Origin: Alloascoidea hylecoeti
Lineage: Eukaryota
Direction: 5' to 3'
Length of the DNA: 64,000 nt
Assembly (NCBI GenBank): GCA_001600815.1
Contig: BCKZ01000001.1
Coordinates: 1,521,389-1,585,388, forward strand
A program made the position numbers and the translations under genes. Positions 50,211 through 58,122 of this stretch are shown here, piece after piece. The notes under the pieces are model-generated. The model was given only the letters and a program-made list of their open reading frames with translations, did no database searches and was not told the DNA's origin. Position 1 is the first letter of the stretch. Each line of letters starts with the position of its first letter.

Positions 50211-50245
50211 TTCGGGTTCGGGTTCGGGTTCGGCTGTTCGGCTGT
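50211..50245. repeat. GC-rich short tandem TTCGGG/TTCGGCTG repeats in the promoter of the psq-HTH gene
   Basis: ttcgggttcgggttcgggttcggctgttcggctg seen directly. Confidence 0.8.
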
Positions 50246-50476
50246 TTGGAACGCGCACGTGCGCCCGGGAAGGCTCGGACTTTCGGAAGAGGCGCATAAC
50301 CATATAGGGAGCGCCGGGTAACGCAGCCGGAAGTGGGTGAAAACGGGACGTTCTCCGGCAAAAACATCAATTTTGGAATTTTGGGGATTTCCGACTCAAA
50401 CAACCAATTTGTTCGACGCCGCCTGTTCGACTCTTTCTTTTTCAAAGATATACAACCAACCATCGAAAAACTCATC

Positions 50477-53428
50477 ATGAGCCCTGAAAGTATCCCTTTG
50501 GACTCAAACGTTAATGAACACATCCCTTTTCCAGCAACGCCTCCAAATCTCGACGTTCCTTCACCAAAGGAAAACTACAAAAATGCTACAAAGGAGAAGA
50601 GAAAGGAATTGATGGAAAAAGCCAAAGACGCAATCTGTGCTGGTATGAATTATGCTGAAGCCTTTGCCAAATTCGGTGTACCAAAATCAACTCTTCATGA
50701 CCATATGAAAGCAACAGACTCCTTACCTGCTTCAAAGAGAAGAAATACCCTGGGCCAGGTGGTTATGAGGGTGGACTCTTCTCCTTCCATTGGCATAACC
50801 CCTAATGGAAATCCTTCTATCCCACCCCCGTTTACGGTGGCTTCTTCTTCCATAAAACCACCTCGCCACACTCAAGAAGAAATTGAACAGACTAAATTAA
50901 ATTACAAACAATCTCCAAGAGAAACCCGTAAAGAATTGTTGAAAAAAGCAAGAGCTGCTGTACTTAGTGGTATGAAGTACTCGGAAGCATCTGCTCAATT
51001 TGGTGTTCCAATCTCAACACTTCATGATAATTTAAAAAGTGATCATTCACTTCAAGAAGTGAGAGAAACAAGGAAGATAATAGCTGCTCTTAATCGATCC
51101 AATTCACATTCAAAATTAGGATCAACTCCAACTCCAACTTTTGATTCAACTGCAAATGTATCCGAAAAACAAGGATCAACTTCAACTCATTCTGAAAGTC
51201 AAAGTTCAACTCCAAATCAAATTTCAATCCCAAGTTCAATTTCAAATTTAAAATCAATTCCAAGTTCAATTTCAAATTTAAACTCAATTCCAAGTTCAAT
51301 TACAAATTCAACTGAAAGTCAAGGTCAGAGTCAAAATCAGAATCAAAATCAAAATCAAAATCAAAATCAAAATCAAAATCAAAATCAAAATCAAAATAAA
51401 AATCAAAATCAAAATCAAAATAAAAATCAAACTCCTATCCAAACTCCTGCCCAATCTTCAAGTTCAAAAAAGAATCAAATCAATGCAGAAGAAGAAGCAG
51501 CAGCAAGAAGTATCTACAAAAATGCATCAAAAGTAGATAGAAAAGCAATTTTAGATAAAGCAATTGCCTCAGTTTCTACGGGTGTACATTGCACAGAAGC
51601 TTCAAAAATCTTTGGTGTACCATTTTCAACATTATATGATAGAATTAAAGTGGAATTACCAAATCATGTTAAAAGAAGTACAATAGGTCATGACCTTGAA
51701 CAAGAAGCTCAAGCAATTGAAAAATATAAATCACTCACAAGAACTGAAAGACAAAGTATTGTTGAAAAAGCAAAAGAAGAAGTTTTAAATGGTATACTTT
51801 TATCTGAAGCTGCAGCAAAATATGGTGTACCAAAATCAACATTACATGATAAACTACGTGGTTCAGATGCAACTAAAGTTATTAAGAAACAAAGATTATC
51901 ACTAGCTGGTAATTCAAATGATACTGATATTGAAACCTCACCTCTTTATAATTCTGACGGTACACCTATTCCTGGAACTTCTAATAATGAAGTTATTAAG
52001 TTTTCAAAAGATTCAAATGAAGTTGATCCTGAAATTGAAAAAGCGGCCAGACAAAGATACACCTGTGCTAGACGTTCAGAAAGAAATGCGATGATTGATA
52101 GAGCTAAAGAAGCTGTTCTAAGTGGTATGAATACAGGCAAAGCTTCAAAACTTTTTGGTATTCCTTTTTCTACTTTATATGATAGAGTTCGCGCAGAGAA
52201 AAAAGCTCAAAGAGAATTATTAATTTTGAATGAAAATGGCACTGAATCTTCTTCTTCTTCCCCAATGAATTTAGATCATTCAATGTTGGAGAAAGCAGAA
52301 ATGGCGATTGATAGTGGTGTTTCGATAGCTGATGCTGCGCTTACTTTTGGAGTTTCAAAAGAAACCCTTACTGATCGTGTAAGAGTTACGAAAGCACTAT
52401 ATCATGCGGAACAAGACCGTAAAGTGCTTACTTTACTAGAAGAAGATGCATTAGTTAATGTTATTCATAGTGTTTGTTCAGAAACTGATCAACATGTTAC
52501 ACCTTCAAGAGTAATTTATTATGCAAAATATGTTTTGGAAGAAAAAAGAAGAAAATCTCCTAATAAATTCACTTATACTGATAATGATATTAATCAAAAT
52601 TGGGCTGAAAGATTTATTGAAAGACATCGATATGAGTTTGGACCAGATTTAAAAGATGATTCTACATTGTATCATTCACAATCAAATATACTTTCAATTT
52701 CAAATAATAACAATCCTAATATGTTATCAGATAATTTATTAAAGTTAAAAGACCTTGATAGTAATACAAATCAAATTGATTTACAGGAAAATATTCGAAT
52801 TTTAAGAAATGAATTGCCAAATGATGATAAAGGAATTAAAAACAAATTAATCAATTATGTCAAACAATTAGGTGATTTATTAGTTAAAGCATCTAATAAT
52901 AAAAACAATGATACACCAGGTGTACTATTACTTGAACAATCTCCTCATAGTCTTAACAATAAGAATAATTCATCGGTAGGTATTGATAATAATAAGAATA
53001 GAATGACTCGAAATACCCAACAACAACGTTCAAATCCATCAAGATCATACCAAGCAAATACTCAACAATCCGAATCATTAAATACAGATCCAACAATTTC
53101 AAGAATTAATGATCAACATCAGCAGTTTTTCACTTCTGCCCCTTTACCGATTTCAAATAACAATAGAAATCAAAATCAAAATCAACAAAACCAAAACCAA
53201 AATCAACAAAACCAAAACCAAAACCAAAACCAAAACCAAAACCAAAACCAAAATCAAAATCAAAATCAAAATCAAAATCAAAACCCAAATCAAAATCAAA
53301 ATCAATCACAACGATTAGCAAACAATCAACAACAACAAGCTCGTGTTCGATTTCAACATTATAATCCTCCTTCTCAAGATCAGAATGCTTTATATTTGGG
53401 ACATTATCCATCTCAGTCTTCTTACTAA
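50477..53428 (+). CDS. Pogo/Fot1-derived DNA-binding protein: six psq-type HTH repeats, one CENP-B/Tc5-type HTH, Q/N tracts, no DDE domain
   Basis: Six A...V..G.....AA..(F/Y)G(V/I)P.STL.D repeats, then LTLLEEDALV..INQNWAERFIERH. Likely ATG at 50477 (the track's GTG at 50333 lies in promoter-like sequence). Confidence 0.85.
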   Translation: MSPESIPLDSNVNEHIPFPATPPNLDVPSPKENYKNATKEKRKELMEKAKDAICAGMNYAEAFAKFGVPKSTLHDHMKATDSLPASKRRNTLGQVVMRVDSSPSIGITPNGNPSIPPPFTVASSSIKPPRHTQEEIEQTKLNYKQSPRETRKELLKKARAAVLSGMKYSEASAQFGVPISTLHDNLKSDHSLQEVRETRKIIAALNRSNSHSKLGSTPTPTFDSTANVSEKQGSTSTHSESQSSTPNQISIPSSISNLKSIPSSISNLNSIPSSITNSTESQGQSQNQNQNQNQNQNQNQNQNQNQNKNQNQNQNKNQTPIQTPAQSSSSKKNQINAEEEAAARSIYKNASKVDRKAILDKAIASVSTGVHCTEASKIFGVPFSTLYDRIKVELPNHVKRSTIGHDLEQEAQAIEKYKSLTRTERQSIVEKAKEEVLNGILLSEAAAKYGVPKSTLHDKLRGSDATKVIKKQRLSLAGNSNDTDIETSPLYNSDGTPIPGTSNNEVIKFSKDSNEVDPEIEKAARQRYTCARRSERNAMIDRAKEAVLSGMNTGKASKLFGIPFSTLYDRVRAEKKAQRELLILNENGTESSSSSPMNLDHSMLEKAEMAIDSGVSIADAALTFGVSKETLTDRVRVTKALYHAEQDRKVLTLLEEDALVNVIHSVCSETDQHVTPSRVIYYAKYVLEEKRRKSPNKFTYTDNDINQNWAERFIERHRYEFGPDLKDDSTLYHSQSNILSISNNNNPNMLSDNLLKLKDLDSNTNQIDLQENIRILRNELPNDDKGIKNKLINYVKQLGDLLVKASNNKNNDTPGVLLLEQSPHSLNNKNNSSVGIDNNKNRMTRNTQQQRSNPSRSYQANTQQSESLNTDPTISRINDQHQQFFTSAPLPISNNNRNQNQNQQNQNQNQQNQNQNQNQNQNQNQNQNQNQNQNQNPNQNQNQSQRLANNQQQQARVRFQHYNPPSQDQNALYLGHYPSQSSY
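51329..51430 (+). repeat. (AATCAA)n coding repeat, poly-QN; a second tract lies at ~53167-53306
   Basis: Direct hexamer repeats encoding QNQNQN. Confidence 0.95.
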
Positions 53429-54333
53429 AGAGACTAACGAATGAAATGAAAGAATGAAATAAAATTTATTTCACATTAACATATTGTTGAGGAAGTATTT
53501 ATTATAACGTTGAATTTTTATGGGTCGATATTTTTTTGTTCTATATTATTTGTTTCATACTATTTATTTATTTTATATATGAGGATTGAAAAATCACTAC
53601 TTATATCTCTAAACTATATATACTTATACTTAACTACTTATACTACATTAGCCGTAGACATAAATGTTAACTGATTAGGTGACAACTTGAAGAAAATGAC
53701 GAAGTCTCATTCAAACCATTTTTAAGCTAAGACTATCAGTTTTAAAGTTTCACTGGGTATAGTTACTACTACGGTGGGTAGCATATGTTTGTTGGATTCT
53801 TTAGAAGGTTTTGTTTTAACACTAAGCAAATATCGTTTAGTGTTAACAACAAGCCAGTCACTCTGCAGAATCCAGATAATAATGGGAAATGGAGATGTAC
53901 TTTGTGGCACCTCTTTCCCGGAACTTTCCACCAAAATATTCGGGGTTTTACCAGCTGTAGATAATCAGCACGTGATTGGAGATCTTTTTAACGAAATTAG
54001 AAATAAAGCCGGTAGACGCATGAAATAGACCATGAAGAATTCTATCTTCTAAATTCTTTATAATTGAAATGCCAATTAAGTAGAATGCCTTCATTCCCTT
54101 CCGAAGGATATGTTTGTTAGTCTTATTTATATTCTGATTTTATATCGCTATTAACGGGTAACACCCATCTTTTATATGTCAAATTACCCTGCTTTTTCAT
54201 GCGGATTGAAATTGCGCCGGAGTTTAGAATTGTCCCGGAGTTTATAATTATCAGATGGGGATTATAAAATTAAGGCTTTTTTCTTTACATCTTACACAAA
54301 CACACATCAACGCATATTAATTTTAAGTGAAAA

Positions 54334-55621: not shown

Positions 55622-56917
55622 TCAAACAGCTTTAGCCATTGATTTACCAGTCTCAGTACAAATTTTAGAATATTCTTGTAAACTAACTGCATCAGCACCT
55701 TCTCTAATTCTTTCTTCCATTGTTTCATTATCACCTAATCTACTTCTTTTTATATAACCTTTAACAATAGGCCAAAAATCTTCAATAGCATTAAAGTCTG
55801 AACTTTGTGGTGGTAAAAATAAACAACGAAATTTATTTGATTCAATAACATCTGCTATATTCCGTTGATTATCAAATGGAACATTTTCTAATAATATAAA
55901 ACTATCATTATATTGATTATCAGTATTTAATTCTTCAACTAATGATTGAATAAAATTTAAATAATGAGAAGTTGAACCACTTAAAAAATTATCATTTAAA
56001 ATAGATCCATCAATTAATTTTCTTCTTTTATAATAAGGTGAAGAAGAATCTGGAGCGGCTCTTTTATATTTTACTTCAAAATGTAATGGACCATTGGCAC
56101 TAATTGCACCCAAAACAGTCGTTGTTGTTGTTCGTAAAACTGGTGCTTTTTCTGAAGATCTTTGTCCTGATTTATCCCATCTTAAAGATCTCATTAAACT
56201 GACATTAAAAGTTGCTTCACCAACAAATATACAATTTTTATTTGGGTTTATATCTTTAGACCATCTTTTAATCCAATCAGATCTTTCTTTTGAGATTTGA
56301 GAATCAGATAAAAAATTCCCATTTGAATTTGATTTTAATTTTTTTGATAAATTTAGTGATAAATAACAATATTCTTTTATAAATTTATTAATACCAGATT
56401 TTGAAATTTGTAAATCTTTATAAACGTTTGTTAATTTATCAAATAATTCTGTAATTGTAATTGATGGATTATCATCAATTTCATTAATTAAAATTTTTGT
56501 TTGTTCATTTGTTAATTTTGGAATATCTGGTCTACGACCACCTTTTGATTTTTCTTTTGTAAATGCATAATCTGGTTGTTTTTCATCTTCTTTTAACCAT
56601 CTTCTAACAGTTGTTAATGGAATTCCCATTTTTAAAGCTGCATCTCTTGCTGTCATTGCTCTATTATGAACTAAGAAGAAAATATCAGATTTATCCTCTG
56701 GTTTATAACGCCTATATATTAATTTACCAGAAGAATCTCTTTTAGTCAGAGTTGTAGGTTCATCATTATTTTCATTACCAGTTTCTTCATTTGATTCACG
56801 GAGTGGTTTGTCTGGTTTATCAACGGAAATATCAGTTTCTTCAGGGGAATGGTGGGGTTCAGAAAGCTGTTGCTCTTGTTCAACAGGATTGTCATTACCA
56901 CGAATTCTTTCAGTCAT
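55622..56917 (-). CDS. Intact Tc1/IS630-family transposase-derived ORF with substituted catalytic residues (probably domesticated)
   Basis: HTH (AALKMGIPLTTVRRW), GGRRP..L, second HTH, IFVGEATF (D->G), LLENVPFD (D->E; cf. MDNAPIH), FLPPQSSDFNAIEDFW. Confidence 0.85.
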   Translation of the reverse strand: MTERIRGNDNPVEQEQQLSEPHHSPEETDISVDKPDKPLRESNEETGNENNDEPTTLTKRDSSGKLIYRRYKPEDKSDIFFLVHNRAMTARDAALKMGIPLTTVRRWLKEDEKQPDYAFTKEKSKGGRRPDIPKLTNEQTKILINEIDDNPSITITELFDKLTNVYKDLQISKSGINKFIKEYCYLSLNLSKKLKSNSNGNFLSDSQISKERSDWIKRWSKDINPNKNCIFVGEATFNVSLMRSLRWDKSGQRSSEKAPVLRTTTTTVLGAISANGPLHFEVKYKRAAPDSSSPYYKRRKLIDGSILNDNFLSGSTSHYLNFIQSLVEELNTDNQYNDSFILLENVPFDNQRNIADVIESNKFRCLFLPPQSSDFNAIEDFWPIVKGYIKRSRLGDNETMEERIREGADAVSLQEYSKICTETGKSMAKAV

Positions 56918-58122
56918 TATTTATCATGAATAATTAACATATAAATTTAAGATAGTATCAATTTTTTTATAAACAATCCAATATATAGTTTAATATATAT
57001 GTTTTTGTGTTTTATATATAAAGATGTGTTTAGGTTAAAATTGTTGTTTAGCAAGAATAAAGGTTGGTACGTTTCAACCTGGAAATATGGACGATTGGGA
57101 GAAAAGAAAATGACACACCACCCACAAATTTCTACCTGCATGAAGTGTCAATCAATGGCACGTGATGCAAAGCGAATAATGAGCACCCTGAAAGGAATAT
57201 GATTGGTCCGTTTTAGATAGAAGGCTTACATTAGTGTAAAAGACTAAAATGTTCAATTGCAAATATTTCAATATTGGTATTAATGTTAATTATATAGAAT
57301 GTGAATTTGATCAACTATCTATAATTGGTAGCAAAAAAACAATGAATCAAATTGGAGGCGGAATCTTGTATATTAATGGAATTAACAGTTAATTTGAATA
57401 AACTGATATAACTAAACTAAATCCACCGATACAACTAAAAGGCGTCAGTACTGATATCTTTTCTAAATACTGTACTGGTTAACTATTGCAATTAATTGCC
57501 AATTCTAACTGCAAAAAAATAGAATTCAGTTGCTTGCAATTGTACCGTATGTCATAACGTTCATTGATTATTTATAAATTTGAAAGAGTTATCTTATTTA
57601 TAGCGACAGCCTATGTAGTATAAAAATAGTACTAAATCTACGGGTTGATATCCTCGGAGTTACTAATTTTGTTACTTTCCTAACATTGTTATGGACGTTG
57701 TAGCTTCAACCTCTGTTTGGAGATCATGGCATCACATGAATCTGATCAGGTGACCCTCTGTTCCCATTACTATAAGCTTATCTCACCTTCTCCAGTCCCA
57801 TATTATACTTATATCCGATTATGTTACATTACTAATACATAACTGGGATTCTCTAAGGTCCATATCTCACTCTGTTTATTCCGTAGTTCCACTCCAACTA
57901 CCACATTGGGTTGTGCCCGAGCCGACTCGGCTAACTGCGTTTACCCGTTAACAAACCTCCAAGCTTCATCCCCTCAATTTAGTTTAGTGTTAAGAATAGA
58001 GTTAGCCGAACATCGCAGTTTTATAACCTCTATATAAAGCTTACATAGTCCTTGCATTTCAGCCTTAGAACGTTATAAGAATAATTTCTTCAACGATATC
58101 AACTTCATATACGTATTTACAA

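What the first reader, a model, noticed from the sequence alone, without database searches (positions are those of the whole stretch)
50477..53428. Domesticated pogo/Fot1 DNA-binding protein with six tandem psq HTHs, a CENP-B-like HTH and Q/N tracts
Seen: six psq-like HTH modules, five of them preceded by a similar Y....R.E.R... helix, then one Tc5/CENP-B HTH, no DDE_1 domain, and two poly-QN tracts. The ORF is intact, lies between SPC97 and MRS3/4, and has no visible TIRs. Established: pogo transposases carry one psq + one Tc5 HTH and were domesticated as CENP-B and S. pombe Abp1/Cbh1/Cbh2, which bind centromeres and silence transposons. Inference: a lineage-specific multivalent repeat-binding factor, possibly for TE surveillance or centromere function. 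The TTCGGG repeats in its own promoter are candidate autoregulatory sites.
Basis: partly seen in the sequence, partly recalled or inferred. Interest (0 to 1): 0.75.

Follow-up and report, generated by a model that had tools for sequence, protein, structure and literature searches.

The report
Yeast protein with six DNA-binding heads
A single-copy yeast gene descends from the DNA-gripping end of a fungal "jumping gene" enzyme, has lost the cutting part and multiplied the gripping part six times, so it is most likely a home-grown DNA-binding regulator; animals and other fungi have evolved the same layout independently.

Summary
Observation confirmed. Window 50477-53428(+) is one intact 983-codon frame with six Pfam HTH_psq modules, a weak Tc5 HTH, no DDE_1 domain and two Q/N tracts. 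It is single-copy and has no terminal inverted repeats (TIRs), unlike a true decayed Fot family in the same genome. psq+Tc5 is the Fot signature, not that of CENP-B or Abp1, and the last psq plus Tc5 aligns with DDE-bearing transposases. Modules 1-5 form one clade, show pS>pN, and share an N-terminal helix with one paralogue only (contig C9). No orthologue was found, so selection across species and expression are untested. The multi-psq layout recurs in starfish, wasp, sea anemone, a lycophyte and a filamentous fungus; one unnamed protein has 9 psq + Tc5. The Q/N tracts are a common microsatellite here. The TTCGGG triplet occurs once in the genome, so autoregulation is unsupported, and nothing points to centromeres. 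Best reading: a lineage-specific, multivalent DNA-binding regulator derived from a Fot transposase, convergent on Pipsqueak. My searches found no yeast case in print. The scan noted a separate multi-HTH orphan elsewhere in this genome (not re-found here).

The parts
50477..53428 (+). Intact single-exon ORF, 983 aa (P0001)
   Evidence: GC3 0.16, within the 0.09-0.24 range of 7 neighbouring ORFs
50546..50722 (+). Module M1 (aa 24-82): short N-terminal extension + psq HTH, recognition helix of the 'STLHD' type
   Evidence: Pfam HTH_psq 19.5 bits; alignment A1
50864..51046 (+). Module M2 (aa 130-190): extension helix + psq HTH, 'STLHD' type
   Evidence: 21.7 bits
51202..51308 (+). 30-nt tandem repeat (3.6 copies) coding a Ser/Ile/Asn-rich linker
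   Evidence: TRF
51331..51431 (+). First poly-QN tract; a hexamer microsatellite of a kind common in this genome
51479..51658 (+). Module M3 (aa 335-394): extension helix + psq HTH, 'STLYD' type
   Evidence: 31.4 bits; sister of M5, 100/89
51686..51871 (+). Module M4 (aa 404-465): extension helix + psq HTH, 'STLHD' type; modelled as four helices
   Evidence: 26.6 bits; AlphaFold2 pLDDT 84.7; first Foldseek row 2COB, LCoR HTH, prob 0.97 but E=0.79
52019..52204 (+). Module M5 (aa 515-576): extension helix + psq HTH, 'STLYD' type
   Evidence: 36.3 bits
52259..52396 (+). Module M6 (aa 595-640): divergent psq HTH without the extension, at the transposase-like distance from Tc5; Pro and Ser that are invariant in M1-M5 are changed
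   Evidence: 19.3 bits; 13-15 of 45 aa identical to M1-M5; unresolved in trees
52439..52639 (+). Tc5 (CENP-B-type second) HTH, aa 655-721
   Evidence: Pfam E=2.8e-4 alone, under cut-off; keeps the LT..EE start and W..F..RH end in alignment with Fot-type proteins
52781..52897 (+). Predicted helical hairpin (aa 769-807), possible self-association element; weakly similar to a paralogue on C3
   Evidence: low-confidence model; BLASTP E=0.009-0.016; no link to the Fot C-terminus
53167..53305 (+). Second poly-QN tract in a low-complexity C-terminal tail
50211..50233 (+). TTCGGG x3.8 upstream of the ORF; unique in the genome as a triple; no evidence that it is a target
50314..50321 (+). CCGGGTAA, matching the yeast Reb1 site (motif identity recalled, from no call), in a G+C-rich promoter-like stretch
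   Evidence: 2 matches in the window vs 0.34 expected, 3 of 100 shuffles reach 2

Best explanation
A host gene made from the bipartite DNA-binding end (psq HTH + Tc5 HTH) of an old Fot-type pogo transposase. The DDE catalytic domain was lost, so it cannot cut or move. One extended psq unit (extra N-terminal helix, shared with a one-psq paralogue on contig C9) was then copied inside the gene five times and diversified into two recognition-helix types (STLHD in M1/M2/M4, STLYD in M3/M5). The six heads sit on long low-complexity linkers, so the protein probably binds clusters of short sites by avidity, or bridges separate sites, and acts as a lineage-specific transcription or chromatin regulator at host loci, with the Q/N- and S/T-rich parts for self-association or co-factor contact. 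Shown: anatomy, Fot-type homology, single copy, no TIRs, one origin of M1-M5, constraint among modules. Inferred: expression, DNA binding, multivalency, regulatory role. Origin from a Fot/pogo transposase about 0.9; kept by the host about 0.85; the confidence given is for the whole statement including the role.
For: psq+Tc5 is the domain pair of Fot/Fot-like transposases (PMC7386202 passages; PMC3441728 passages). M6+Tc5 aligns over both domains with a DDE-bearing Fot-type ORF (L059, 29% of 103 aa, E=6.4e-5) and with same-genome relatives L001 (27% of 114, 3e-9), L026 (33% of 129, 2e-7) and L106; 11 of 12 subjects gave a match, 10 at E<=0.002 (pairwise E-values). Single copy: M4 retrieves only its own gene plus C9 and C3 (8 matches); 44 of 44 non-self DNA matches lie in the repeat tracts. 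A real Fot family in this genome looks different: 12 of the 15 DDE loci compared are 77-99% alike, many have stops, ~200-bp TIRs, 40 end matches, and no DNA similarity to this locus. M1-M5 form one clade, 98/84, among 98 modules. Pooled pS 0.56 vs pN 0.36, bootstrap 95% range of the difference 0.09-0.31, 9 of 10 pairs with dN/dS <=0.63. The extension scores 22.0 in the C9 paralogue vs -3.8+-5.2 (max 9.3) in the other 77 of 78 modules scored. Module model pLDDT 84.7; closest solved relative is the LCoR psq HTH (E=1.1e-6 by sequence). In a Drosophila psq protein (Dan) the psq domain is needed for DNA binding and low-complexity parts drive condensates (PMC11178893 passages).
Against: No orthologue in any search, so present-day selection and synteny are not shown; the dN/dS compares paralogous pieces chosen on their conserved cores and shows constraint at some time since duplication, and the M3/M4 pair gives 1.31. 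The Tc5 match is under Pfam's cut-off. With full-length modules the M1-M5 clade drops to 85/42 and M1-M5+C9 has only 65/82. M6 has changes at two positions invariant in M1-M5 and may not bind DNA. No binding site is identified.
Confidence: 0.55

Rival explanations
1. Transposon surveillance: the protein uses its inherited heads to bind the ends of resident Fot elements and block or silence them, as S. pombe Abp1/Cbh do for retrotransposons. The resident family's TIR opens with three CCG-cored sub-repeats at an 18-bp period, a natural multivalent target.
For: A decayed Fot family with ~200-bp TIRs and 40 end matches (lower bound) is present; the 18-bp sub-repeats are read from the ends printed; psq and Tc5 domains recognise TIRs in fungal elements (PMC3441728, PMC2836289 passages).
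Against: The resident family's psq modules form their own clade (100/98), apart from M1-M5; no DNA similarity between the locus and 15 of 15 fossil loci at E<=0.01; the gene is clearly older than this family.
Confidence: 0.15
2. Centromere or satellite-binding factor, convergent on CENP-B.
For: It has a CENP-B-type second HTH (1HLV appears in both fold searches, E 0.19 and 3.9); pogo transposases were domesticated into centromere proteins more than once (PMC4231638 passages).
Against: It lacks CENP-B_N as best match and the DDE region that CENP-B-like genes keep; the candidate repeat TTCGGG x3 occurs once in the genome; no centromeric repeat was linked to it.
Confidence: 0.1
3. A transposon relic or non-autonomous element whose frame has simply not yet decayed.
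For: No orthologue found; expression is untested; the genome is rich in pogo-derived pieces (22 DDE_1 matches).
Against: 983 codons open while the other frames hold 45 and 110 stops; single copy and no TIR; pS>pN among modules with dS near 1 or more for most pairs; host-like GC3; real fossils here carry stops.
Confidence: 0.1
4. A host protein in which the repeated four-helix modules serve mainly as protein-binding or scaffolding units rather than DNA readers.
For: The private extra helix is conserved (Y-x7-R invariant) and has no counterpart in 77 of 78 other psq modules scored; whether it packs on the HTH differs between two models (separate helix, one continuous helix).
Against: The strongest conservation is in the HTH turn and recognition helix (G, P, S, T, L, D invariant), which is where psq proteins read DNA (PMC11178893 passage).
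Confidence: 0.1

Closest known systems
Fot/Fot-like transposases of the pogo superfamily (Fot1, Pot2, DAHLIAE, Trem)
   Same: N-terminal HTH_psq followed by HTH_Tnp_Tc5 at the same spacing (PMC7386202, PMC3441728, PMC2836289 passages).
   Different: No DDE_1/DD35D domain, no TIRs, single copy, six psq modules instead of one.
Drosophila Pipsqueak and other multi-psq proteins (BTB + psq hits P0020, P0026, P0027; starfish P0002 with 8 psq; Trichogramma P0003 with 5; Nematostella P0006 with 5 + DDE_1; Plectosphaerella P0005 with 5; Selaginella P0013 with 5; unnamed P0010 with 9 psq + Tc5)
   Same: Several psq HTHs in one chain. In the module tree the repeats of P0003 (100/98) and P0013 (98/91) each form their own group, as M1-M5 do: independent amplifications. 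P0010 has the same order, many psq then Tc5, and no DDE_1 among its 25 listed of 30 families.
   Different: No BTB domain; identities only 25-45%, confined to the HTH; the extra N-terminal helix is private; repeats lie 64-204 aa apart versus 51-55 aa in the BTB-psq hit P0026. That Pipsqueak has four repeats is recalled; its GAGA binding was seen only as a reference title.
Mammalian CENP-B and S. pombe Abp1/Cbh1/Cbh2
   Same: Host genes from pogo-superfamily transposases with a Tc5-type second HTH.
   Different: Their first HTH is CENP-B_N or HTH_ABP1_N in one copy, and they keep a DDE-derived region; here it is psq x6 with no DDE. No centromere link shown.
Drosophila Dan (psq-superfamily protein with low-complexity regions)
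   Same: psq-type DNA-binding domain joined to largely low-complexity sequence (PMC11178893 passages).
   Different: Dan has one psq domain; condensate behaviour is not tested for the yeast protein.
Same-genome single-psq + Tc5 genes without DDE (C9 = L004/P0037, C3 = L001, C22 = L106, C2 = L115)
   Same: psq + Tc5 in intact frames of 273-464 codons with no DDE motif seen in the printed sequences; C9 shares the extension helix.
   Different: One psq module each; none is described in the literature I searched.

Membership tests
Fot/Fot-like transposon (pogo superfamily) | HTH_psq + HTH_Tnp_Tc5 DNA-binding region | tested here: met
   (Tc5 just under cut-off)
Fot/Fot-like transposon (pogo superfamily) | DDE_1 catalytic domain with DD35D | tested here: not met
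   no DDE_1 at E<=1; none in aa 729-983; locus absent from the 22 genome-wide DDE_1 matches
Fot/Fot-like transposon (pogo superfamily) | Terminal inverted repeats around the ORF | tested here: not met
   best flank-to-flank inverted score reached by 21 of 40 shuffles; no such pair; the same approach finds ~200-bp TIRs in resident fossils
Fot/Fot-like transposon (pogo superfamily) | Dispersed copies | tested here: not met
   (only simple-repeat matches; the DNA search scored 40 of 41 candidates)
Domesticated transposase-derived host gene | Intact, single copy, no transposon hallmarks | tested here: met
Domesticated transposase-derived host gene | Purifying selection | tested here: inconclusive
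   pS>pN among the gene's own modules; no between-species test possible
Domesticated transposase-derived host gene | Syntenic orthologues in related species | not testable with these tools
   the genome tool holds no relatives; protein and metagenome searches gave no orthologue
Domesticated transposase-derived host gene | Expression | not testable with these tools
   see Tried and rejected
CENP-B / Abp1-Cbh type | Single CENP-B_N or HTH_ABP1_N first HTH | tested here: not met
   6 of 6 modules match HTH_psq best; neither family is listed; locus not among 8 CENP-B_N matches in the genome
CENP-B / Abp1-Cbh type | Retained DDE-derived domain | tested here: not met
   feature from PMC7386202 and PMC10799480 passages
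CENP-B / Abp1-Cbh type | Binds centromeric or retrotransposon DNA | not testable with these tools
   needs ChIP or in vitro binding
Pipsqueak (psq-motif) DNA-binding superfamily | psq HTH motif | tested here: met
   Pfam 123.9 bits, 6 stretches; LCoR 2COB E=1.1e-6
Drosophila Pipsqueak proper | N-terminal BTB domain | tested here: not met
   no BTB, whereas the same scan finds it in P0020, P0026, P0027

The most novel reading that the evidence does not exclude
A budding-yeast-type fungus has built a six-headed reader of repeated DNA from a Fot transposase, and uses it to hold arrays of short sites: either the three 18-bp-spaced sub-repeats at the ~40 resident Fot ends (a CENP-B-like genome-defence factor of new design) or centromere repeats. 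Together with a second multi-HTH orphan noted by the scan and at least four single-psq siblings, this would be a lineage that repeatedly turns transposase heads into multivalent chromatin proteins.
Probability: 0.15. Interest if true: 0.7.

Novelty: new variant of a known kind. Interest (0 to 1): 0.38.

Why it matters
Transposase-derived psq regulators are well known in animals (136 listed in PMC10027918), but HTH_psq was reported absent from both model yeasts, and whether fungal psq proteins are true transcription factors was called open (PMC10056406 passage). This gene is a clean fungal test case: no catalytic domain, single copy, constrained repeats with two recognition-helix types, and a one-module paralogue as a natural control. 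It would show a yeast reaching a Pipsqueak-like multivalent design on its own. The principle is known, so a specialist would find it a good example rather than a surprise unless the target proves to be transposon ends or centromeres.

Tried and rejected
Orthologue searches: aa 30-730 gave 0 of 7,999 candidates; aa 338-725 gave 1 of 8,000, a starfish protein; phmmer over 1.84 billion representatives gave 29 hits at E<=1e-3, none at 1e-30, 28-45% identical; the module profile gave 19 of 7,998, where the only hit covering the extension was the genome's own C9 paralogue; metagenome scans gave 0 of 234 and 50 of 184 stretches (46 loci), each with a single module under my profile; the Atlas had no hit at 0.9 or more for P0001; the scan's index had no look-alike. 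P0001 itself is not in the protein collection though 3 of 4 neighbours looked up are, so these blanks are weak evidence of absence. Expression: no RNA holder listed; no evidence either way. Contigs of runs X2 and X4 match the listed pieces with 0 differences and give no polymorphism data; X2 may be the source; X5 and X9 barely cover the gene. TTCGGG as dispersed target or transposon-end motif: rejected. Q/N tracts as a special feature: generic; three of the matching loci I translated are unrelated proteins with QN runs. The helical hairpin at aa 769-807 as a remnant of the Fot C-terminal coiled coil: a two-sequence profile gave no score above 0.1 bit on 28 targets; not supported, weak test. 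Whether M6 belongs with M1-M5, or the gene is a chimera of C9-like and C3-like parts: unresolved (AU p=0.49). Fold searches: no match at E<=0.001 and best Z 5.5; only generic HTHs. The second multi-HTH gene of note e1-7784816 was not retrieved, so it is not a detectable paralogue. The bacterial promoter scan is not apt for a yeast and found nothing. Literature searches listed no paper on a multi-psq yeast protein; the library lacks most subscription papers, including Siegmund and Lehmann 2002, and no supplements were read (those of PMC10799480 and PMC7386202 might list such genes).
Full report
What is there. Window 50477-53428(+) is a single open frame of 983 codons between a gamma-tubulin-complex gene and a mitochondrial carrier gene. 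Pfam finds HTH_psq six times (E=1.9e-36), a weak HTH_Tnp_Tc5 at aa 655-721 and no DDE_1. Scanned separately, 6 of 6 modules match HTH_psq best and 4 of 6 pass the cut-off; Tc5 alone scores 21.2 bits against a cut-off of 22.2. The module anchors lie at aa 66, 175, 379, 449, 560 and 624, so the heads are 64-204 residues apart on low-complexity linkers, not in a tight array. M1-M5 share 17-26 of 45 residues with each other and M6 only 13-15. M1-M5 carry an N-terminal extension with an invariant Y-x7-R. An AlphaFold2 model of M4 from a six-row alignment has four helices, pLDDT 84.7; its closest solved relative is the LCoR psq HTH (E=1.1e-6; first row, though at E=0.79). A single-sequence model of M5 to the hairpin is weak (pLDDT 62) and fuses the extension with helix 1, so the packing of the extension is open.

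Origin. The pair psq + Tc5 marks Fot/Fot-like transposases; Tigger/pogoR carry CENP-B_N and Lemi carries HTH_ABP1_N, and the vertebrate domesticates keep the DDE domain (PMC7386202, passages). M6+Tc5 aligns across both domains with a DDE-bearing Fot-type ORF from a metagenome (29% of 103 aa) and with several same-genome relatives, keeping the Tc5 landmarks. The gene is therefore Fot-derived, and the CENP-B/Abp1 comparison is an analogy, not membership. The genome holds a set of such derivatives: psq+Tc5 frames without a visible DDE on C3, C9, C22 and C2, and frames with DDE-like regions on C3, C4, C15, C18, C21 and C29.

Not a mobile element. M4 retrieves only its own gene and the C9 and C3 paralogues. 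A DNA search with the gene and both flanks gave 45 matches; the 44 non-self ones all fall on the repeat tracts. The flanks share no inverted repeat beyond chance (21 of 40 shuffles as good). The genome supplies a positive control: 12 of 15 DDE loci compared form one decayed family at 77-99% identity, with ~200-bp TIRs and 40 end matches; none of the 15 resembles this locus in DNA. GC3 is 0.16, like its neighbours. Contigs of two public runs match the listed pieces without a difference, but they break at the repeat tracts and one run may be the source.

Amplification and constraint. In a tree of 98 psq modules (49 columns, many forks unresolved) M1-M5 form one group (98/84) with M3+M5 as sisters (100/89); M6 is a long unresolved branch. 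With full-length modules and 37 rows the support falls to 85/42, the C9 module joins at 65/82, and an AU test cannot place M6 (p=0.49). The extension is shared with the C9 paralogue only: score 22.0 against -3.8+-5.2 for the other 77 of 78 modules, and a profile built without C9 ranks it first among non-self domains, by a small margin (44.8 vs 39.8 bits); I had noticed C9 by eye before this test. Among M1-M5, pooled pS is 0.56 and pN 0.36; the bootstrap range of the difference is 0.09-0.31; 9 of 10 pairs have dN/dS <=0.63 and M3/M4 has 1.31. Four-fold sites are 53 of 100 identical against 38% expected from base use, so the copies are old but not saturated. This shows constraint after duplication; it is not a between-species test. 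The recognition helices fall into two types, STLHD (M1, M2, M4) and STLYD with a preceding Phe (M3, M5); I infer two related site preferences.

The TTCGGG triple exists but occurs once in the genome, the reversed control five times; the hexamer is not enriched in the window or at fossils. The upstream stretch looks like an ordinary G+C-rich yeast promoter with a CCGGGTAA site (its identity as a Reb1 site is recalled). The Q/N tracts are a genome-wide microsatellite type found in unrelated proteins. Nothing ties the protein to centromeres. Transposon surveillance stays possible: the resident TIR begins with three CCG-cored sub-repeats at an 18-bp period (read), but the resident family's psq forms a separate clade.

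How unusual. No orthologue was found; since P0001 itself is missing from the collection, this is weak evidence. The best hits are unrelated multi-psq proteins: starfish (8 psq), a wasp (5), Nematostella (5 + DDE_1), the fungus Plectosphaerella (5), Selaginella (5), BTB-psq proteins, and an unnamed protein with 9 psq + Tc5 (names were looked up for 13 of the 29 hits, P0002 came named). Their repeats tend to group by protein, so amplification of psq has happened many times. Repeated domestication of HTH-psq in animals is published (PMC10027918, passages). HTH_psq was reported absent from the two model yeasts and its status as a fungal transcription factor open (PMC10056406, passages). A kingdom-wide screen of fungal transposon co-option has no occurrence of 'psq' in its main text (PMC10799480, passages; supplements not read). 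Seven literature searches listed no multi-psq yeast protein. Other papers seen as passages only: PMC4231638, PMC11178893, PMC3441728, PMC2836289, PMC1702500, PMC5127561. The scan's notes report another multi-HTH orphan and other transposase-derived genes in this genome; I could not retrieve the former, and treat these as leads.

Verdict. A real, intact, probably domesticated Fot-derived gene with a five-fold amplified private psq module plus the ancestral psq-Tc5 pair. It most likely works as a multivalent sequence-specific DNA-binding regulator (0.55); transposon-end binding (0.15), centromere binding (0.1), a relic (0.1) and a scaffold role (0.1) remain. New variant of a known kind; interest 0.38.

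Noticed in passing
window 55622-56917 (-): A second transposase-derived gene two ORFs downstream: 431 aa, Tc1/IS630-type DDE_3 (E=2.7e-13), with the first two catalytic positions apparently changed (read by eye). Three intact paralogues at 58-65% identity cluster on contig C3, plus decayed copies (13 matches). The scan already noted this family (e1-7784244).
   Followed up: partly
G000 C18:358938-361152 (L020) and 11 related loci: A decayed Fot-type family of about 2.2 kb, 77-99% alike, with ~200-bp TIRs that open with three sub-repeats at an 18-bp period; 40 end matches genome-wide; short paired ends on C36, C8 and C12 suggest internally deleted copies.
   Followed up: partly
L004 1423-2172 (G000 C9), L001 (C3), L106 (C22), L115 (C2): Four intact single-psq + Tc5 frames without a visible DDE domain; the C9 gene shares the private N-terminal helix with the six-module protein.
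   Followed up: partly
L007 (C15) and L014 (C18): Two paralogous Fot-derived genes with a long low-complexity insertion inside the Tc5 domain and an N in place of the second catalytic D (read); probably the subject of note e1-7785309.
   Followed up: no
L008/L013 (G000 C4:41357-42271): A 1007-codon frame with Tc5 + DDE_1 and a long N-rich tail; looks like the yeast pogo-derived factor Pdc2 (name recalled, not tested).
   Followed up: no
window 54210-54245: Two 18-nt direct repeats with a CCGGAG core upstream of the carrier gene (family D18); same period and a similar core as the resident TIR sub-repeats, possibly chance. An ACACCC element near 54160 would fit iron regulation of an MRS4-type gene (motif recalled).
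   Followed up: no
window 53638-53665 and 57596-57623: A 28-nt, 79% inverted pair that brackets the carrier gene and the DDE_3 gene; not tested against chance.
   Followed up: no
P0005 (Plectosphaerella, 624 aa) and P0013 (Selaginella, 898 aa): Uncharacterised fungal and plant proteins with five Pfam psq stretches each: further non-animal cases of psq amplification.
   Followed up: partly
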